64,000 nucleotides of DNA from a virus. Taxonomy: Duplodnaviria > Caudoviricetes. The notes under the pieces were generated by a model. It was not told where the DNA came from, ran no database searches, and was given only the letters and a program-made list of their open reading frames with translations. Below, piece after piece: positions 2,635 to 14,846 of the stretch; the first letter of the stretch is position 1; the number at the start of each line of letters is the position of its first letter. Made by a program: the position numbers and the translations under genes. Where the stretch lies: the IMG/VR virus record IMGVR_UViG_3300046819_000361, one strand, 5' to 3'.

Positions 2635-2710
2635 GGGGTGACCGATGGGACTTGAACCCATAAAATTCTGAATCACAATCAGGGTCGTCTACCAATTCCG
2701 ACACGGCCAC
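2635..2710 (-). tRNA. tRNA-His(GTG), no encoded CCA
   Basis: Cloverleaf, loop TTGTGAT, C discriminator, 3' end reads CCT; acceptor extended by a flanking inverted repeat. Confidence 0.8.
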
Positions 2711-3356: not shown

Positions 3357-3418
3357 CAGGATACGTTTTTACTAGTTGAATTAAAAGTTCAGTGTAAATT
3401 GTTTGCTGAATGTATCCT
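3357..3418 (-). ncRNA. Bulged-helix RNA, copy 5 (Lys-UUU anticodon stem-loop)
   Basis: AGGAUACA-UUCAGCA ... UGAA-CUUUUAA-UUCA ... CGUAUCCUG. Confidence 0.65.
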
Positions 3419-4437: not shown

Positions 4438-4491
4438 CAGGATACGCTTTTTCATTTTTCAAGAATGTTTTTTAATTGCTGCATGTATCCT
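4438..4491 (-). ncRNA. Bulged-helix RNA, copy 6 (Ser-UGA anticodon stem-loop)
   Basis: AGGAUACA-UGCAGCA ... CAUU-CUUGAAA-AAUG ... GCGUAUCCUG; TTGCAA-17-TATAAT promoter just upstream. Confidence 0.65.
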
Positions 4492-4514: not shown

Positions 4515-5045
4515 TTATTTGAACATTTGCAAGATATTTTTCATAGCATCTGTATTACTATCCCATGTTTGTCCGCCAAATCGTCCGTATTCTATACGGT
4601 TATCAGCAGACCATTTATTATAATAATCGGACAATTCACCATTGCATTCCAATAGTGTATCACCGTAATTGATTATCATTACATTAGGATTCATGCAATC
4701 ACGAATTGAATAAACCTTCTCAAACGCTTCTTTAATACCCATGCCATGTTGTATTAGTACTAGAATAGCAGTTGCTGTACTTCTACTAACACCAGCATGA
4801 CAATGAATTAAAACTTTATCAGTATCAGTAAATGTTTTACTGAATTCTAAAATATTTTCAATATTTTGTAAAGTAGGATGTTGATATCCTTCTAATGGTA
4901 CTTCAATATCATGAAATCTTTCTACGTGATGTTCCACATCACAATCAAATACTTTGGTATTTGGATCAACAATGCTAATGACTTTAGTATGGGTTGGTAC
5001 CCATAAACTTGCTTCGTATAATCCTGATATAGTTATATCTAACAT
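4515..5045 (-). CDS. Cys-based protein tyrosine/dual-specificity phosphatase
   Basis: HCHAGVSRS (CX5R) motif. Confidence 0.88.
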   Translation of the reverse strand: MLDITISGLYEASLWVPTHTKVISIVDPNTKVFDCDVEHHVERFHDIEVPLEGYQHPTLQNIENILEFSKTFTDTDKVLIHCHAGVSRSTATAILVLIQHGMGIKEAFEKVYSIRDCMNPNVMIINYGDTLLECNGELSDYYNKWSADNRIEYGRFGGQTWDSNTDAMKNILQMFK

Positions 5046-5061
5046 TTTTTACCTCAAAAAT

Positions 5062-5113
5062 TGGCGGGGCTATAATTGCTGTTAAAATCCTTGACAGGAT
5101 TTATTTTGGCCCC
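5062..5113 (-). ncRNA. Bulged-helix RNA, copy 7 (permuted handle on a CCA-ended acceptor stem)
   Basis: GGGGC...AAUCCU-GUCA-AGGAUU-UUAACAGCA...GCCCC-G-CCA. Confidence 0.6.
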
Positions 5114-5121
5114 ATTATATT

Positions 5122-5197
5122 TGGCGACCCTACCCGGTGACGATCCGGGTTTACTATCGTGAAAGGATAGTGTTCTACCAACGTAAACTATAGGGTC
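5122..5197 (-). tRNA. tRNA-Glu(TTC)
   Basis: Cloverleaf, loop CTTTCAC, atypical T-loop ATCGTCA, CCA. Confidence 0.85.
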
Positions 5198-6024
5198 TTA
5201 TTTTTCGTATATTGGTTTCTACCCGTAATATTCCCAGGTGTTACCCGTTTTCCATTACAAGTTCTTGAACAATATACATTAATTGTTTTTAATTTTTTAT
5301 CACGTGTAAAATTTTTACCACAATGTGAACATGTGTACTCGTATAAAGGTTTATACCCATCGTATAGTGTATAATATTTTTCAGTATTATAAGTTTCTTT
5401 TACATATGTAAAAGCATATTTCAAATCATTAAATCGTAAAACATGTACATTATATCCAAAACTTTCAGCAACCTGTGTTTTTAAATCCACTGATTTTTGA
5501 TTTTCATAACCTTTTGTTTCTATTATAGTTTTATTATCCGATAAAATAAAATCAGGGTAATATTTAATACCATTTCTTTCCAAATAACCGTCAAATCTAG
5601 AAAATTTAATATTATGATCTAAATTGTATATTACCCAGCATAATTCATATGTTGATCCACAATAAATGCCATTATAATATCCTGATTTTGATCTACCAGA
5701 ACCATTTCTATATCCACCTATGTGTTTGGAACTACATTCTTTTGAACAATATTTTTTATTACTCGTTTTTATTATTCTAAAATCTGTTCCACACTCTACA
5801 CATTGTCTAATCTCACGAATAGCAAATTCTTTGCCTTTTGTAGAGGCAGGTTTAATACCTAGCTTCTTAAATGTAAGAGATGTTTTTATCTTTTGTTCTT
5901 CACTTGGTTTCCATCCAGAGTCTTTCCGTTTTCTGTTATTATATTTCGCTGAACACGATCTATTACAAAACTTTTTTGCATCTTTACTGATTAAAGTGTT
6001 TCCACATTCTAAACAATTATTCAT
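5188..6024 (-). CDS. Free-standing homing endonuclease, PD-(D/E)xK type with Zn-finger repeats
   Basis: YYPDF...IIETKG; three CxxC..CSxxC modules; TATAAATA at 6044-6051. Confidence 0.75.
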   Translation of the reverse strand: MNNCLECGNTLISKDAKKFCNRSCSAKYNNRKRKDSGWKPSEEQKIKTSLTFKKLGIKPASTKGKEFAIREIRQCVECGTDFRIIKTSNKKYCSKECSSKHIGGYRNGSGRSKSGYYNGIYCGSTYELCWVIYNLDHNIKFSRFDGYLERNGIKYYPDFILSDNKTIIETKGYENQKSVDLKTQVAESFGYNVHVLRFNDLKYAFTYVKETYNTEKYYTLYDGYKPLYEYTCSHCGKNFTRDKKLKTINVYCSRTCNGKRVTPGNITGRNQYTKNKTL

Positions 6025-7200: not shown

Positions 7201-7653
7201 TTAGTAGAGTGTTAAGAATTCTACTACATTGGTGTGAAGTTCATTATAAATTTTATCACCCCATGTTACAGCATCTTGTTCAGTAACCCTAAAATTATAG
7301 TTTTCTGGTTGAATGAACAATTTATTTGTATCATTGTATCTGCTTTTTTCAATGGTGTCAACCCATATTGTGATAGTTGGGTTAATAATTTCCCTAAATT
7401 CAGGTAATGGTGCTACCATATCTATTAGTATATAGCCATTTTCAACCTCATCAGCAAAATTTTTCATTCGTTGTGCTTGACGAAGTCTCCCATCATATGA
7501 AAAATCCCAATCATTAAATTTTTCTCTTACTTCATCGGCATTGTACCAATGAACTTGGTAATCTGCAAGTTCTAATTTCTTTTTTAGTTCATTGGCTAGG
7601 GTAGTTTTACCAGAGCCCGGTAATCCCATGATCAAAATTGTTTTTTTACTCAT
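7201..7653 (-). CDS. Adenylylsulfate-kinase-like P-loop kinase
   Basis: GLPGSGKTT, NADEVR, GRLRQA motifs. Confidence 0.8.
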   Translation of the reverse strand: MSKKTILIMGLPGSGKTTLANELKKKLELADYQVHWYNADEVREKFNDWDFSYDGRLRQAQRMKNFADEVENGYILIDMVAPLPEFREIINPTITIWVDTIEKSRYNDTNKLFIQPENYNFRVTEQDAVTWGDKIYNELHTNVVEFLTLY

Positions 7654-7752
7654 ATAATTCATCAGTTTCTGAAAAATGGCTTCAAACAAGCCTTACGAAT
7701 GTATTTAGTACCATTTGGTTGACTGTCTATTAAAAAATCAGATTTTTTTACA

Positions 7753-10261: not shown

Positions 10262-10336
10262 TGGTGCACCCGATGGGATTCGAACCCATTGTCGCAAGTT
10301 TTAGAGGCTTGTGCTATACCTAGTAGCTTCGGGTGC
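10262..10336 (-). tRNA. Amber suppressor tRNA (anticodon CTA)
   Basis: Cloverleaf; CAAGC-CTCTAAA-ACTTG puts CTA at 34-36; CCA. Confidence 0.8.
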
Positions 10337-10758: not shown

Positions 10759-11328
10759 TTATTGATAACCGCTGACGATATCGCCTAACTCAAGACCATC
10801 GAACCCGGCTCCAATTGCCTGGAATGAGAATTGTCCATCACGTTTGAAGAATGATCCAACTTGAACGGCTGTTTCATTTTTGTAGTCAGCATCTAGATCA
10901 TAGAATGCAATTTCCTCATTGGTATCAGCATTTAAGATTTTGATACCTGCTTCAGGTACCTGACCAAAAGACTGACCACGAGATACAGCTTCATGGATGG
11001 TTACAACAATTGAAATTTCATCAACTGTTGCTGGTAACGTATTGATATCGATGAAAACCTCTTCGGTACCACCTTGACGCATATCTGGTGTTTTTGAAAC
11101 ACTTTTTTCAGGTGTCGCTTCATTGTTATAGAACACCAAATAGTCATCACCTAACAACTTCGGACCATTATCGGTTGTTTTCAAAACAAACGCTGATACA
11201 TCTAAATCATATTTTGGATTGTTATCTGGAACATTCCACCATAATACTGCCTTTACCTTTCCCATGGCAGGTTGTGATTTGGTTAGGTTGATACCTTTAT
11301 TTTCAGATTTTGCAAGATTAATTGCCAT
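10759..11328 (-). CDS. terD: TerD-family stress protein
   Basis: INLTK, DLDVSAF, VFYNN, VVTIHEA..RGQSFGQV, FQAIGAG. Confidence 0.88.
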   Translation of the reverse strand: MAINLAKSENKGINLTKSQPAMGKVKAVLWWNVPDNNPKYDLDVSAFVLKTTDNGPKLLGDDYLVFYNNEATPEKSVSKTPDMRQGGTEEVFIDINTLPATVDEISIVVTIHEAVSRGQSFGQVPEAGIKILNADTNEEIAFYDLDADYKNETAVQVGSFFKRDGQFSFQAIGAGFDGLELGDIVSGYQ

Positions 11329-11351
11329 GTTATTACCTCTTGGTAGTTTAA

Positions 11352-12359
11352 TTAAATTGATTTGTGTTTGATTGAAGAGATCAATGATGCACCAATGAAT
11401 GCAGCACCAATCAACCCTGTAATGCTTTCTGGAATTTCGTATACAGTATTTACGAACATGATGATAGCCAATCCAAATATTGCATAGAATGCACCATGCT
11501 CTAGGTAAATGAATTCATCAACAGTGCCCTTATCTACCATTAGTAATGTTAAGCTTCTTACGAATAACGCACCGATACCAAGGCCAATCATGATGATGAA
11601 AATATTGTTTGTCAATGCTAATGCACCTAATACTCCGTCGAAACTGAAGCTTGCATCTAATACTTCCAAGTAAAGAAACGATGCTAACCCGGATTTGGCT
11701 ACTGCACCTGTAACCGTGCCATCATCAGTCCCGATTACTGCTTCTAAACCATCGACAAGAATGTACGTTACTAATCCGAATACACTTGCGACCAAGAATG
11801 CTGATGCTTCTGTTTCATTATGTGTGGATCCGATGATTTTGTAAACAATATATACCAATACTAATGTAATTGCAGATTGTATTGCTTCAATTTTGCCTAA
11901 TTTAGTGAATCTTTCTTCAATTGGTTTAAGCCAATGCGTATCTTTGTCTTGATCGATGAAAAACTTTAATGCAACCATCATTAGGAATGTGCCACCGAAA
12001 CCCATGACTGAGGTATGGACTGATTCTAGCGCATGAGAATACTGTTCTGGGTCATTAACTGCTAACATGAATGATGAATATGGGTTAATTCCCAATGCAA
12101 CTGATACAATTGCTAATGGAAACACCATTCTCATACCAAATACAGCAATAGCCATACCCCAGGTAATGAAACGATGACGCCATATATCATCCATTCCTTT
12201 TAGAACTTGTGCATTCACGACGGCATTATCAAAACTCAAACTAACTTCAAGAATTGATAGAACTAACGTGATCCAGGCTGCTTCGAGCCCACCGATCAAA
12301 TATGCTAGTACGATACCGATACCAGCAATCAAAAAAGAACCTTTAAAATATTGTAACAT
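11352..12359 (-). CDS. DUF475/TerC-like integral membrane protein
   Basis: LEVSLSFDNAVVNA, YLEVLDASFSFDGV, YLEHGAFYAI. Confidence 0.88.
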   Translation of the reverse strand: MLQYFKGSFLIAGIGIVLAYLIGGLEAAWITLVLSILEVSLSFDNAVVNAQVLKGMDDIWRHRFITWGMAIAVFGMRMVFPLAIVSVALGINPYSSFMLAVNDPEQYSHALESVHTSVMGFGGTFLMMVALKFFIDQDKDTHWLKPIEERFTKLGKIEAIQSAITLVLVYIVYKIIGSTHNETEASAFLVASVFGLVTYILVDGLEAVIGTDDGTVTGAVAKSGLASFLYLEVLDASFSFDGVLGALALTNNIFIIMIGLGIGALFVRSLTLLMVDKGTVDEFIYLEHGAFYAIFGLAIIMFVNTVYEIPESITGLIGAAFIGASLISSIKHKSI

Positions 12360-12422
12360 TGGATATTACCTGTGTGTTTGTTAAAAGAAGCTTCATTCTA
12401 CCTGTAAATTCAGGTATGTCAA

Positions 12423-13103
12423 TTATTTTTTAAACTTTCCGACCCAATCAGCAAATTCTTGGCTGATAATGTCTTCATATAAGTCTTCATCACTGATACT
12501 TTCGATATCATCTATCTTCAAATAACCGGCATTTGGGTATTTTTCGCCCAAATATTCGATAAATGAGAAGTTCCCACCACCAATACCGATCAAAACCCAA
12601 TATAAATCTTTAGATTGTGATTCTACGATAACCTTTTCAGTTGCTTGTTGATCGAAATTCTCGCCATCGGTGATGAAAATAGCTAATGATGGGTCAGTTG
12701 AATTAGATTTCTTCCCAAACAACTTCCCAAATAGGCCAGTTTGTACTGGTGCGGCACTATTAACGATGTCTTTCATGACTGGTGCATACTCTGTACCACC
12801 TTCACTAATTTTTTTGACGATTTCACGGTCAACAAAGTCTTCGATGTTGCTAATATTGACTGATGGCAGCTCAAATGAATCATTATGAAATGCCCAAATG
12901 TCAATAATTTTATCTTTATCGATGTTCATACCAATTGCTAGCACTCGTTCTACCACATCTTGAACGACTTTGTTGCGATATAGGGTATTCATGGACCCAC
13001 TGCGATCAATTGCCAGTTTTACTTGGCATGGAATGTCACGGATTTGTTTTTTAGTTAGGATGATACCTACTTTTTCTGCTCTTTTAGTTAAATCAATAGC
13101 CAT
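12423..13103 (-). CDS. vWA-domain protein (Ter-associated)
   Basis: DRSGSM MIDAS, GGTEYAPVM, FITDG. Confidence 0.85.
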   Translation of the reverse strand: MAIDLTKRAEKVGIILTKKQIRDIPCQVKLAIDRSGSMNTLYRNKVVQDVVERVLAIGMNIDKDKIIDIWAFHNDSFELPSVNISNIEDFVDREIVKKISEGGTEYAPVMKDIVNSAAPVQTGLFGKLFGKKSNSTDPSLAIFITDGENFDQQATEKVIVESQSKDLYWVLIGIGGGNFSFIEYLGEKYPNAGYLKIDDIESISDEDLYEDIISQEFADWVGKFKK

Positions 13104-13132
13104 TTTTACTTATCTCGGTTGATTGTTAAAAA

Positions 13133-14272
13133 TTAATGGGTTTTTGGTCCTGCAATAGTGGTCCGTCCAGCATTAGATGAAATGGAAGCATACATGCGCT
13201 TCATTTCATCCATTCTCGATGCACTTTTAATTCTAGTTTCTTTACCAGTATTGTTTATTTGCACAATTTCTCCTAATGTACTGATTAGGTTTTGATGTAC
13301 ATGTTCTATTGTAGCATCATCTATCAATGAACGTTGGTTTAATTTTGCTGATTCAATTGAATTAGCACTAATGATGTTTGAATTGGTTTTAATTAGAGTA
13401 TTGTTTGCATCATCTACTGCTGCTGCTAATGCTGCACTTTTTCTTAATTCTTGACCATCTATATACATTCTGATTTGTCTTTTCCATAATGGAATAGTCA
13501 TAGTTTTGATATCATGGAATTTTTGGAGTAATGTTGCAGCACTATCTTCCATTTGACTAATTGAAGGTGCATTTTGAATAGCCATCATTTGAAATTTCTT
13601 CAAATAATCGATTTTCTTCTCCAATCGATCTAAATTTTTTGTACTTCTATTAACTTCTTCGGCGGCAAGGAGATCTGATGCGTTAACCCGCATTTTTTCA
13701 ATTTCTTTTGCCATTATTTGGTATGCTTCTTCTGCATCTTTGATCAAATTTTCTAATCTGTGATATTCATTCAAATTTTCACGGTATTGCACTTGCAGAC
13801 CGTTTAATTTGGCAATAATTCTGTGATTGGCTTGATCAATTTCGTCAATAATTTTGTCCATTTGTGTGGACACATCAGTGAATTCTGCTGAAAGTTGTTC
13901 ACGGACATTAATAAACTTTTCTTTGATCTTTCCAAAGAGTTTTGAAATATTTGAATCTGAATTATTGTTCGTATTCAGGTGAAATGTCTTCGCCATTGTT
14001 AGAATACTAGTTAACTGTTGTTCAACGAAGTCAACGTCAGCATCTTTGACTTCATTTAATAAAGCTTCTGATTTTTTGGCAATATCTGACATAACATCCG
14101 CCCCGTAATCGATAATCCCGGTTGGTGAATCAAATGTTGAAAGTAATTGGAGTACACGAGGATTGGATGCGCCTAAATCTGACAATTGTTTAGGTGAAAC
14201 TGGTGTAAATGACTGTTTAACTGAAACTTCAGTACCAGATGATGACACTTGAACAGGTTTAAAAGACTTCAT
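13133..14272 (-). CDS. TelA-family toxic anion resistance protein
   Basis: Long coiled coil, Q.APSI..M and TIPLWK motifs, ter context. Confidence 0.8.
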   Translation of the reverse strand: MKSFKPVQVSSSGTEVSVKQSFTPVSPKQLSDLGASNPRVLQLLSTFDSPTGIIDYGADVMSDIAKKSEALLNEVKDADVDFVEQQLTSILTMAKTFHLNTNNNSDSNISKLFGKIKEKFINVREQLSAEFTDVSTQMDKIIDEIDQANHRIIAKLNGLQVQYRENLNEYHRLENLIKDAEEAYQIMAKEIEKMRVNASDLLAAEEVNRSTKNLDRLEKKIDYLKKFQMMAIQNAPSISQMEDSAATLLQKFHDIKTMTIPLWKRQIRMYIDGQELRKSAALAAAVDDANNTLIKTNSNIISANSIESAKLNQRSLIDDATIEHVHQNLISTLGEIVQINNTGKETRIKSASRMDEMKRMYASISSNAGRTTIAGPKTH

Positions 14273-14326: not shown

Positions 14327-14846
14327 GGTATTTTTGGTTATAAGGTATTTCCTACCCCAGAATTCGCTGGTTATTAAGCAGCGATAGCATCAAAGATGCC
14401 ATCTACAGTGTAGAATTCAAATTTAGAATCGTTTGCGATTACTATGTTTATGCTGATTAGGTCAGTCATATCTCCTGTTGCCTTCTCCACTATTACACCA
14501 CGTCGAAACCAACTGTCATTCCCATCATAAAAACATAGGTACTCCCCTTTGAAGGGGCAGGGAGTTTATGGCTATGGCCCCACTCTGATACCAACCTATG
14601 TTCTTATGGTGGAAATGCCCGGGGTCGAACCGGGGTCCGCAATGCCTTTATTTTGAAGGAATAACAACAATTCTGTATATCTATACCGCACACCCTTGCG
14701 ACTTCAGCCTGTTAAGGTAGAGCTACTAAATAGAAGTCATAGAGTTCTATATGTTCGCATAGATAAGTTAAATATCTAACTATGGTTCAATAATGGCGTA
14801 CCACTCCTAATCGTTTGTACTATGTACCGGATTTAAGTTAGACTAT
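14327..14846 (-). ncRNA. ssrA: Circularly permuted (two-piece) tmRNA; tag ANDSKFEFYTVDGIFDAIAA at 14374-14436
   Basis: Acceptor piece ends GGUUCGACCCCGGGCAUUUCCACCA (14607), coding piece starts GGGAAUG (14523); G3-U70; promoter at 14853-14880; 5' boundary uncertain. Confidence 0.88.

What the first reader, a model, noticed from the sequence alone, without database searches (positions are those of the whole stretch)
5062..5113. 52-nt minihelix ending in CCA built on the permuted handle
Seen: GGGGC...GCCCC-G-CCA acceptor-like stem enclosing the same handle with its strands swapped (AAUCCU-GUCA-AGGAUU-UUAACAGCA). The motif surviving permutation argues it is a structural protein-binding site, not a DNA repeat. 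Inference: an RNase P-processable, possibly chargeable or CCA-end decoy RNA.
Basis: partly seen in the sequence, partly recalled or inferred. Interest (0 to 1): 0.7.

Follow-up and report, generated by a model that had tools for sequence, protein, structure and literature searches.

The report
CCA-ended mini-tRNA on phage handle
In the tRNA gene row of an uncultured giant lake phage, a conserved 52-base hairpin keeps only a tRNA's open CCA end. It is joined to the constant "handle" of the phage's small-RNA family. It is real and under selection, but whether it is made as a free RNA, and what it does, is untested.

Summary

- **Handle match.** The hairpin module has every constant feature of the phage's roughly 30 "handle" RNAs, but the chain ends sit in the other helix.
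- **Single copy.** There is one copy per genome, found as four sequence variants on ten related contigs.
- **Fixed position.** It always lies 6-8 nt after a tRNA's CCA, and that tRNA differs between relatives. It always lies 16 nt before a dual-specificity phosphatase gene.
- **Selection.** All variation falls in the linkers, the loop and the end pairs of the hairpin. There is one compensatory pair and one strand-specific G.U.
- **Flanks.** U at -1, G1, G73-CCA and an A-UUUU trailer copy those of the array's real tRNAs.

Best reading (about 0.45): tRNA-processing enzymes release it as a non-decoding RNA that shows a tRNA 3' end on the handle. The main rival (about 0.3) is a cis leader of the phosphatase mRNA. 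Charging is unsupported.

The same scan has noted CCA minihelices in other phages' tRNA arrays. The fusion to this handle and the link to a phosphatase gene are the new parts here. No RNA ends were mapped.

The parts
5122..5197 (-). Upstream tRNA-Glu(UUC), ending G-CCA. Its T loop (AUCGUCA) is non-canonical.
   Evidence: ARAGORN. No Rfam tRNA hit even at E<=10. Relatives carry two other tRNA-Glu alleles or a tRNA-Asp in this slot.
5114..5121 (-). AU-rich 8-nt spacer AAUAUAAU, with U at -1 of the minihelix.
   Evidence: The spacer is 6 nt in L004 and L028 (ATTAAT, ATTTAT), and all variants end in U.
5109..5113 (-). 5' strand of the acceptor-like stem, GGGGC.
   Evidence: Invariant in all 4 variants and pairs with 5066-5070.
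5103..5108 (-). A-rich 5' linker, CAAAAU.
   Evidence: Variable in sequence and length: 6 nt in type 1, 9-10 nt in type 2.
5096..5102 (-). Handle strand AAAUCCU, equivalent to the 3' strand of canonical copies.
   Evidence: Pairs 7/7 with 5085-5091. One U-A to A-U flip and one G.U occur among the variants.
5092..5095 (-). Loop GUCA. Its G corresponds to the constant G that follows CCU in canonical copies.
   Evidence: The loop is GUCA, GUUG or GUCG, and G and U are invariant. Nearly all canonical copies have G after the 3' strand.
5085..5091 (-). Handle strand AGGAUUU, equivalent to the 5' strand of canonical copies.
   Evidence: An identical AGGATTTTAACAGCAA heads a canonical-order copy in another phage, at L059:2351.
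5076..5084 (-). 3-nt spacer UAA plus CAGCAA, the family's constant unpaired motif.
   Evidence: Invariant in all 4 variants, with the same spacing as in about 30 canonical copies.
5071..5075 (-). 3' linker UUAUA.
   Evidence: Variable: UUAUA, UUUAU, CCAUA or CUAUA.
5066..5070 (-). 3' strand of the acceptor-like stem, GCCCC.
   Evidence: Invariant.
5062..5065 (-). Discriminator-like G plus encoded CCA.
   Evidence: Invariant in the 4 variants. 11 of the window's 12 tRNAs also encode CCA.
5046..5061 (-). 16-nt leader AUUUUUGAGGUAAAAA, which is both a tRNA-type A-UUUU trailer and a Shine-Dalgarno sequence.
   Evidence: The length is 16 nt in L028 as well, although 5 of the 16 bases differ. The trailers of tRNA-Asp, Gln and Phe begin AUUUU.
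4515..5045 (-). Dual-specificity (Cys) phosphatase gene, 176 aa (P0001), always the gene immediately downstream.
   Evidence: Pfam DSPc at 1.1e-11. HCxAGxSRS-type motif. Linkage seen on ten contigs.

Best explanation
The element is a gene-like RNA module that sits in a tRNA slot of the phage's co-transcribed tRNA array.

Its shape is a tRNA reduced to two parts. One is an open acceptor-like end: a 5-bp G-C stem, G73 and an encoded CCA. The other is the family's handle, a 7-bp [A/U]GG..CC[U/A] helix plus UAA-CAGCAA, closed by a tetraloop where a tRNA would carry its anticodon stem.

I infer the following steps.
1. It has no conserved promoter of its own, so it is transcribed with the neighbouring tRNAs.
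2. RNase P cuts between U(-1) and G1.
3. The 3' end is made as for the neighbouring tRNAs: a cut in the A-UUUU trailer, then trimming back to CCA.
4. The product is a 52-56-nt non-decoding RNA. It shows a free tRNA-type 3' end while bound by whatever factor recognises the handle.

Its likely job is to serve as a tRNA 3'-end mimic, either substrate or decoy, inside the handle-RNA system. It is functionally tied to the phosphatase gene it always precedes. The same cuts would also define the 5' end of the phosphatase mRNA.

Shown: the structure, conservation, linkage and flank signals. Inferred: transcription, the cuts, the binding and the function.
For: 1. Structure. Two helices are recovered by single-sequence folds (z from -2.1 to -2.9), by the context fold and by RNAalifold. 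All 48 pair cells form standard pairs, against 29-63% when partners are slid. There is one both-sided change (U-A to A-U). One G.U pair fits only the minus-strand RNA.

2. Selection. L004 and L028 differ at 22-28% of third codon positions in the adjacent gene. Their minihelices differ by only 3 substitutions and 1 gap column in 56 (binomial P = 0.003). All changes lie in the linkers, the loop and the end pairs of the hairpin. GGGGC, GCCCC-GCCA, the five central hairpin pairs and UAACAGCAA are invariant.

3. Handle identity. All five constant features of the canonical family are present. A canonical-order copy in another phage starts with the identical 16-mer.

4. tRNA-slot grammar.
- It lies 6-8 nt after a tRNA's CCA, within the 6-21-nt range of tRNA-tRNA gaps in these arrays.
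- It has U at -1, as do 9 of 12 tRNAs.
- CCA is followed by A, as in 11 of 12 tRNAs.
- The AUUUU trailer matches those of tRNA-Asp, Gln and Phe.
- tRNA-Val is followed 18 nt later by an ORF start, the same junction design as here.

5. No conserved promoter or terminator.

6. The model finds one copy per genome.

7. Precedent. M. smegmatis YrlA is cut by RNase P in its acceptor-like stem and gains CCA in vivo (PMC4201824).
Against: - No expression data exist, and no RNA ends were mapped.
- The closing stem has 5 bp, not 7. There is no T arm or 12-bp coaxial stack. [quoted passage not shown]
- The closing stem and GCCA never vary, so they give no covariation evidence. Only four variants are known.
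- The strict link and fixed 16-nt distance to the phosphatase start codon fit a cis-acting leader equally well.
- The 56%-identity clade (L030) and an 89-kb relative (G004) keep canonical copies, but no minihelix was found in the DNA available.
- L034-36 are natural deletion variants without it.
- The handle-binding protein is not identified. A TROVE search of three related fragments found nothing.
Confidence: 0.45

Rival explanations
1. Cis-acting leader of the phosphatase mRNA. After RNase P or RNase E separates it from the upstream tRNA, the minihelix stays on the message. It acts as a flush 5' stem-loop that protects the mRNA. Its handle acts as an operator. The protein that binds the roughly 20 handle RNAs would also bind this leader and set phosphatase translation or stability. 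This is a titration feedback, like ribosomal-protein or ThrRS operators that mimic the natural RNA ligand.
For: - The element always lies 16 nt before the phosphatase ATG, even though 5 of 16 leader bases differ in L028.
- The upstream tRNA changes (three tRNA-Glu alleles, or tRNA-Asp) while the minihelix-gene pair stays together.
- No conserved promoter lies between the tRNA and the gene, so the mRNA must come from a processed polycistron.
- Closing the handle with a loop is what is needed to embed it in a leader.
- GCCA can be explained as an RNase P recognition element alone (established knowledge: RCCA pairs with the P15 loop of bacterial RNase P RNA).
Against: - Another ORF in the same array follows a plain tRNA by 18 nt without any minihelix, so a message here does not need one.
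- The A-UUUU trailer right after CCA is the same as behind real tRNAs, which suggests a cut there.
- Distant phosphatase homologues in tRNA arrays (L030, L048) have no such leader.
- Window and L004 share a 97.7% identical gene but carry different minihelix alleles, so leader and gene do not co-evolve tightly.
Confidence: 0.3
2. Pure processing punctuation. The element is a minimal RNase P substrate whose only role is to cut the tRNA-Glu trailer and free the downstream message. The handle-like hairpin merely props up the stem.
For: - The U(-1)/G1/G73-CCA context.
- Its position between a tRNA and an ORF.
- Earlier notes of this scan read some phage minihelices this way (unchecked).
Against: - Punctuation does not explain the invariance of the 15-nt block GGAUUUUAACAGCAA, nor its identity to the family handle.
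- tRNA-Glu's own 3' end already provides a processing site. The tRNA-Val/ORF junction works without a minihelix.
Confidence: 0.12
3. Decaying remnant of a tRNA gene, or a DNA-level by-product of recombination and homing-endonuclease activity in a mosaic array, with no RNA function.
For: - An HNH-type homing endonuclease gene (5188-6024) abuts tRNA-Glu.
- The region is mosaic, with tRNA alleles and minihelix alleles reassorted in L038 and L043.
Against: - Purifying selection relative to synonymous sites.
- A compensatory pair and a strand-specific G.U.
- The element is present whether or not the HNH gene is there (L001, L004, L028).
- Of 151 tRNAs called in all fetched loci, only one starts with GGGG. 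It is a tRNA-Ala ending GCTCC-A-CCA, not GCCCC-G-CCA.
Confidence: 0.05
4. Intrinsic terminator or attenuator at the end of the tRNA-Tyr/Pro/Glu transcription unit, or a promoter.
For: - A G-C stem followed by a U run (GCCCC-GCCAA-UUUUU).
- A promoter-like TCGTCA-18-TATAAT on the minus strand ending at 5114, and TATAAT/TTGACA hexamers on the plus strand.
Against: - The terminator scan finds nothing here. The U run starts 5 nt after the stem, and the stem encloses 38 nt.
- The downstream gene has no conserved promoter of its own, so termination would silence it.
- The plus-strand hexamers are in the wrong order.
- Both the plus- and minus-strand hexamers are lost in L001, L004 and L028.
Confidence: 0.04

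Closest known systems
RNase P-cleaved, CCA-tailed form of Mycobacterium smegmatis YrlA (a bacterial Y RNA; Chen et al. 2014, PMC4201824)
   Same: A non-decoding tRNA mimic. One end is a protein-binding helix and the other is an open acceptor-like stem ending in CCA. It is recognised by tRNA-processing enzymes.
   Different: - YrlA is transcribed with its ends in the Ro-binding helix and is opened afterwards into two pieces. Here the gene itself is in tRNA order, in one piece, with CCA encoded.
- There are no T or D arms here.
- Rfam gives no Y-RNA or YrlA match at E<=10.
- No Ro60/TROVE gene was confirmed.
This phage clade's own CAGCA-handle small RNAs
   Same: A 7-bp [A/U]GG..CC[U/A] stem, a 3-nt spacer, CAGCAA, G after the 3' strand, and A-rich linkers on both sides.
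   Different: - The chain ends lie in the cargo helix, not in the handle.
- There is no promoter of its own; several canonical copies have TTGACA/TATAAT.
- The cargo is a bare 5-bp stem plus GCCA.
Synthetic acceptor minihelices and model hairpin substrates of bacterial RNase P, aminoacyl-tRNA synthetases and CCA-adding enzyme (own knowledge: McClain, Guerrier-Takada and Altman 1987; Francklyn and Schimmel 1989; Kirsebom-lab hairpins)
   Same: A hairpin with G1-C72, a purine at position 73 and CCA, with U at -1.
   Different: - This one is natural, genome-encoded and conserved.
- The stem is only 5 bp, followed by a large internal loop instead of a stacked T arm.
- No enzyme assay has been done.
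Phage T4 RNAC and RNAD (species 1 and 2 RNAs) of the T4 tRNA cluster
   Same: Small stable non-tRNA RNAs encoded among phage tRNA genes, with function still unknown (PMC9697503). Their maturation by tRNA-processing enzymes is from my own knowledge.
   Different: They are longer RNAs. There is no detectable sequence similarity (no phage GenBank match to the element), no handle motif, and no known link to a phosphatase gene.
Dictyostelium Class I RNAs (Rfam RF01414; Kjellin et al. 2021, PMC7919456)
   Same: The architecture matches the handle: a short terminal stem starting with G, then ..ACAGCAA.., an A-rich variable body, and a 3' stem followed by UG. Two canonical copies score 29.2 and 23.1 bits.
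   Different: - The scores are below the gathering cut-off of 41.5 bits.
- The minihelix itself does not match, because its strands are swapped.
- Class I RNAs are eukaryotic, cytoplasmic and bound by an RRM protein. Homology is unproven and may be chance or convergence.
CCA-ended minihelices in tRNA arrays of other uncultured phages
   Same: A non-decoding acceptor-stem hairpin with discriminator and encoded CCA, occupying a tRNA slot.
   Different: Going by their summaries, those lack the CAGCA handle and the fixed coupling to a phosphatase gene. I did not re-examine them.

Membership tests
CAGCA-handle small-RNA family of this phage clade | 7-bp helix with [A/U]GG on one strand and CC[U/A] on the other | tested here: met
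   AGGAUUU/AAAUCCU in type 1 and UGGAUUU/[A/G]AAUCCA in type 2.
CAGCA-handle small-RNA family of this phage clade | 3-nt spacer, then unpaired CAGCA followed by A | tested here: met
   UAA-CAGCAA, invariant in 4 variants.
CAGCA-handle small-RNA family of this phage clade | G directly after the CC[U/A] strand | tested here: met
   It is the first loop base (GUCA, GUUG, GUCG). Nearly all canonical copies have G there.
CAGCA-handle small-RNA family of this phage clade | RNA termini lie in the handle helix (5' strand first, 3' strand last) | tested here: not met
   The strand order is reversed and the helix is closed by a 4-nt loop.
CAGCA-handle small-RNA family of this phage clade | Own sigma-70-type promoter just upstream (seen for several copies) | tested here: not met
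   The only hexamer match in the window (TCGTCA-18-TATAAT) is lost in L004 and L028.
tRNA (Rfam RF00005) | Cloverleaf with D, anticodon and T arms and a 7-nt anticodon loop | tested here: not met
   No ARAGORN call. No Rfam hit at E<=10. It has a single inner hairpin with a 4-nt loop.
tRNA (Rfam RF00005) | Acceptor end: G1-C72, discriminator, CCA; U at -1; tRNA-type trailer | tested here: met
   The stem is 5 bp, not 7.
Bacterial Y RNA / YrlA | Match to the family model (a Ro60-binding helix with a conserved motif plus T- and D-arm mimics) | tested here: not met
   No Rfam Y-RNA or YrlA match.
Bacterial Y RNA / YrlA | Ro60/TROVE protein encoded nearby and bound to the RNA | tested here: inconclusive
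The TROVE profile found nothing in three related fragments, each 16-26% complete. The window's own genome is not held.
Intrinsic terminator | G+C stem with a short loop, followed within 0-2 nt by a U run | tested here: not met
   No hit at this site. The U run starts 5 nt after the stem.
RNase P minihelix-type substrate | U(-1), G1-C72 and 3' RCCA | tested here: met
   Sequence only.
RNase P minihelix-type substrate | Actual cleavage at -1/+1 | not testable with these tools
   This needs an enzyme assay or end mapping.
Dictyostelium Class I RNA (RF01414) | Score at or above the 41.5-bit gathering cut-off | tested here: not met
   The minihelix gives no hit. Canonical copies score 29.2 and 23.1 bits.

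The most novel reading that the evidence does not exclude
The phage makes a free, CCA-ended acceptor mimic held by the handle-binding protein. This RNA intercepts host enzymes that attack or modify tRNA 3' ends, such as CCA-pyrophosphorylating toxSAS enzymes, MenT-type nucleotidyltransferases or acceptor-stem nucleases. The cysteine phosphatase encoded 16 nt downstream then cleans the modified ends. Together they would form an RNA-decoy-plus-repair counter-defence module, completing a family that displays each part of a tRNA (anticodon loops, the elbow and the 3' end) on one scaffold.
Probability: 0.1. Interest if true: 0.85.

Novelty: new variant of a known kind. Interest (0 to 1): 0.55.

Why it matters
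Phage tRNA arrays are usually read as codon-usage or anti-defence spare parts. This array holds a conserved RNA that keeps only the tRNA's chemically reactive end and joins it to a protein-binding handle shared by about 20 other tRNA-part mimics.

If the RNA is made as predicted, it would be a natural one-piece counterpart of the processed mycobacterial Y RNA. It would also be a defined small ligand for finding the handle-binding protein, and a way to test whether phages use acceptor-end decoys or substrates.

The fixed coupling to a phosphatase gene suggests an enzyme-RNA pair that can be tested directly. If it proves to be only a leader or a processing signal, it still shows how ORFs are expressed from inside a tRNA operon.

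Tried and rejected
- **Known RNA families.** Rfam (gathering cut-offs, and E<=10) and ARAGORN give nothing for the element.
- **The 9-mer as the repeat.** UUAACAGCA is not the repeat unit. Its other exact copies lie inside ORFs.
- **Plus-strand promoter.** The TATAAT and TTGACA hexamers are in the wrong order and are not conserved.
- **Minus-strand promoter.** TCGTCA-18-TATAAT is not conserved.
- **Terminator.** No hit.
- **tRNA remnant.** No clade tRNA has this acceptor stem.
- **GenBank phages.** Only the tRNAs match, or there are chance hits.
- **IMG/VR pattern scans.** Only the same three contig lineages turned up, plus chance hits.
- **Metagenome scan.** My pattern set the gap at 25-45 nt, so it could not match the 52-nt type 1 (gap 24). 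It added one contig, L043.
- **Genome-contig scan.** Chance hits only.
- **Model R1.** No second copy in the window, in 18 loci or in four virus records.
- **TROVE profile.** No hit in G001-G003.
- **Phosphatase search in G001 and G004.** No hit.
- **Own assembly.** Not held.
- **L030 fold.** A fold of the L030 region upstream of its phosphatase homologue was not better than shuffles (z = -0.4).
- **Phosphatase sequence.** The hits to solved structures are generic dual-specificity phosphatases, which say nothing about an RNA substrate.

Full report
**What is there**

On the minus strand, 5113 to 5062 reads GGGGC-CAAAAU-AAAUCCU-GUCA-AGGAUUU-UAA-CAGCAA-UUAUA-GCCCC-G-CCA. It lies 8 nt after the CCA of tRNA-Glu(UUC) (5197-5122). 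It lies 16 nt before the ATG of a 176-aa dual-specificity phosphatase gene (4515-5045; Pfam DSPc, 1.1e-11). All neighbouring tRNAs and genes are on the same strand. Earlier notes of this scan describe the genome as an uncultured giant freshwater phage. The window also holds 12 tRNA genes, a permuted tmRNA and a Polynucleobacter-1 RNA.

**Is the structure more than chance?**

The 52-mer folds into a 5-bp closing stem and a 7-bp inner hairpin (MFE -15.2 kcal/mol, z = -2.6). The same helices appear in three ways:
- in the folds of three other variants (z from -2.1 to -2.9);
- in a 181-nt context fold, next to a clean tRNA-Glu cloverleaf;
- as the RNAalifold consensus.

**The handle**

AGG-N7-CAGCA occurs 7 times in the window against 1.16 expected, and none of 100 shuffles reached 7. 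Six of the seven are on the minus strand inside the tRNA array. In the window and related loci, about 30 canonical copies read [A/U]GGNNNN-NNN-CAGCA-A ... NNNNCC[U/A]-G. Their 7-bp stem is perfect and covaries: AGGAUAC/GUAUCCU, AGGUUAG/CUAACCU, AGGAUGC/GCAUCCU, UGGAUCA/UGAUCCA and others.

The element has the same stem type, the G after CCU, the 3-nt spacer, CAGCAA and A-rich linkers. Its two strands come in the opposite order and are joined by a loop. A canonical-order copy in another phage (L059:2351) starts with the identical 16-mer AGGAUUUUAACAGCAA and carries a T arm, a capped acceptor stem and a D arm.

Read in tRNA terms, the handle sits where the anticodon stem would be and CAGCA where the variable loop would be. 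The element is then the native tRNA gene order (acceptor 5' strand, handle hairpin, acceptor 3' strand, CCA). The YrlA-like copies are the rotated ones.

**Relatives**

Pattern scans and look-ups of phosphatase homologues found the element on ten related contigs, in four sequence variants:
- type 1: the window, and L001 (the same in L002);
- type 2: L004 (the same in L037, L038 and L043), and L028 (the same in L029).

A covariance model built from the four variants finds exactly one copy per genome and no paralogue.

All variation lies in the two linkers, the loop and the end pairs of the hairpin. GGGGC, GCCCC-GCCA, the five central hairpin pairs and UAACAGCAA are invariant. The loop-closing pair flips from U-A to A-U between the types. 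L028 has a G.U pair, which works only in minus-strand RNA.

L004 and L028 differ at 22-28% of third codon positions in the phosphatase gene. Their minihelices differ by only 3 substitutions and one gap column of 56 (binomial P = 0.003). That is purifying selection.

The window and L004 show the reverse. Their phosphatase genes are 97.7% identical, yet they carry different minihelix types (8 substitutions plus a 4-nt indel). The variable 5' half therefore moves by recombination.

The upstream tRNA is also reassorted:
- tRNA-Glu allele A in the window and L038;
- allele B in L001 and L043;
- allele C in L004;
- tRNA-Asp in L028.

An HNH-type homing endonuclease gene (5188-6024) sits next to tRNA-Glu in the window and L038. 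It probably drives this mosaicism.

**What it travels with**

The element always comes directly after some tRNA and always 16 nt before the phosphatase ATG. This holds even in L028, where 5 of the 16 leader bases differ.

Phosphatase homologues at 56% identity or less (L030, L032, L045-L048) lack it, although some of them also sit in tRNA arrays. L034-36 are deletion variants. A 217-nt stretch replaces about 1.9 kb holding tRNA-Tyr, tRNA-Pro, the HNH gene, tRNA-Glu, the minihelix and the first 137 nt of the phosphatase gene.

L030 keeps at least nine canonical handles in 20 kb. G004 keeps a canonical copy in 89 kb. Neither shows a minihelix in the DNA available. The element is thus specific to one clade and is not needed by the canonical copies. 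These records are fragments, so absence is not proven.

**How it probably works**

No promoter or terminator is conserved at the site. It must therefore be transcribed with the tRNAs.

Its flanks copy those of the array's tRNAs:
- U at -1 (9 of 12 tRNAs);
- G1 paired with C72;
- an encoded CCA (11 of 12);
- A directly after CCA (11 of 12);
- an AUUUU trailer, as behind tRNA-Asp, Gln and Phe.

It sits at a tRNA-like distance from the preceding tRNA. tRNA-Val is followed 18 nt later by an ORF start, so "CCA-ended structure, 16-18-nt leader, ATG" is a repeated design here.

From established knowledge of bacterial RNase P (U-1, G1-C72, and RCCA pairing with the P15 loop), and of RNase E plus exonuclease trimming of CCA-encoding precursors, I infer that these enzymes release a 52-56-nt RNA. 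A published precedent exists. M. smegmatis YrlA is cut by RNase P in its acceptor-like stem and receives CCA in vivo (PMC4201824).

I rate this reading at about 0.45. The RNA would be a handle-bound mimic of a tRNA 3' end, functionally tied to the phosphatase.

**Rivals**

- *Cis leader (about 0.3).* The minihelix stays on the phosphatase mRNA as a protective 5' stem-loop and an operator for the handle-binding protein. The strict linkage and fixed spacing favour this. The tRNA-type trailer, the tRNA-Val/ORF junction that has no minihelix, and the reassortment of minihelix alleles against the gene argue against it.
- *Pure punctuation (about 0.12).* This does not explain the invariant handle block.
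- *tRNA remnant or DNA-level by-product (about 0.05).* Selection, the compensatory and G.U pairs, and the lack of any clade tRNA with this acceptor stem argue against it.
- *Terminator or promoter (about 0.04).* These fail the scans and the conservation test.

**Charging**

Nothing supports charging. The stem has 5 bp, there is no T arm, and the G73 plus G-C pairs are not diagnostic. This is not testable here.

**Comparison with known things**

No Rfam family, GenBank phage or other collection holds a look-alike. The nearest published analogues are:
- the processed M. smegmatis YrlA;
- synthetic minihelix substrates;
- T4 RNAC and RNAD, whose function is still unknown.

The handle's architecture resembles Dictyostelium Class I RNAs. 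Two canonical copies score 29.2 and 23.1 bits against RF01414, below the 41.5-bit cut-off. This is a lead only.

This scan has already noted CCA-ended minihelices in the tRNA arrays of several other phages (unchecked). The general kind is therefore recurrent. Three things are particular here:
- the fusion to the CAGCA handle;
- the native-order topology within a family of rotated tRNA mimics;
- the fixed coupling to a phosphatase gene.

**Verdict**

I class it as a new variant of a known kind, with interest 0.55.

Noticed in passing
window 4438-4490 and 3357-3417 (minus strand): Two short canonical handle RNAs give sub-threshold matches to Rfam RF01414, the Dictyostelium Class I RNA family (29.2 and 23.1 bits; cut-off 41.5). 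They share its layout: a terminal stem, ..CAGCAA.., an A-rich body, and a 3' stem followed by UG.
   Followed up: partly
window 5122-5197 (minus strand); L001:7045-7119; L004:2849-2922: The tRNA-Glu(UUC) slot holds three very different alleles in phages whose flanking phosphatase genes are 96-98% identical. The window's allele has an odd T loop (AUCGUCA) and gets no Rfam tRNA hit even at E<=10, although ARAGORN calls it.
   Followed up: partly
window 5188-6024 (minus strand): A 278-aa zinc-ribbon protein matches the PHROG HNH endonuclease families and is inserted between tRNA-Pro and tRNA-Glu. Its ORF overlaps tRNA-Glu by 10 nt. L001 and L004 instead have a roughly 120-nt spacer rich in GAAA-loop hairpins.
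   Followed up: partly
L030:9704-9782: In the 56%-identity relative, a 79-nt tRNA-shaped RNA lies about 220 nt upstream of the phosphatase homologue. It has a G3.U70 pair, A73, an encoded CCA and a T-arm-like hairpin, but only a 3-nt 'anticodon' loop. Neither ARAGORN nor Rfam calls it (fold z = -2.8).
   Followed up: partly
window 4515-5045; L030:10001-10531; L048:390-920: This DSP-type phosphatase family (HCxAGxSRS motif) turns up repeatedly inside or beside tRNA arrays of different uncultured phages, which hints at a tRNA-related substrate.
   Followed up: partly
window 7201-7689 (minus strand): A 162-aa P-loop kinase (APS-kinase/KTI12-like; PHROG 'kinase') is encoded next to the head of the tRNA array. 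Together with the phosphatase it could form a split RNA end-healing pair.
   Followed up: no
window 10759-14272 (minus strand): A phage-borne Ter-type cluster (TerD, TerC/DUF475, a TerF-like vWA protein and TelA) lies between the suppressor-type tRNA(CUA) at 10262-10336 and the permuted tmRNA at 14338-14720.
   Followed up: no
window 2635-2710 (minus strand): tRNA-His is the only one of the 12 tRNAs whose ARAGORN call does not end in CCA. Its sequence ends ...UCGGUCA-C-CCC and is followed by U.
   Followed up: no
L034:1410-1627, compared with window 6779-4908: Three contigs from different samples carry a natural variant. A 217-nt stretch replaces about 1.9 kb (tRNA-Tyr, tRNA-Pro, the HNH gene, tRNA-Glu, the minihelix and the phosphatase 5' end), giving the phosphatase a new N-terminus right behind the array-head attenuator.
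   Followed up: partly
L059:2476-2560: Next to the canonical handle copy there is a tRNA-like sequence with an apparent insert after the anticodon-stem region. It may be an intron-containing or disrupted tRNA. ARAGORN does not call it.
   Followed up: no
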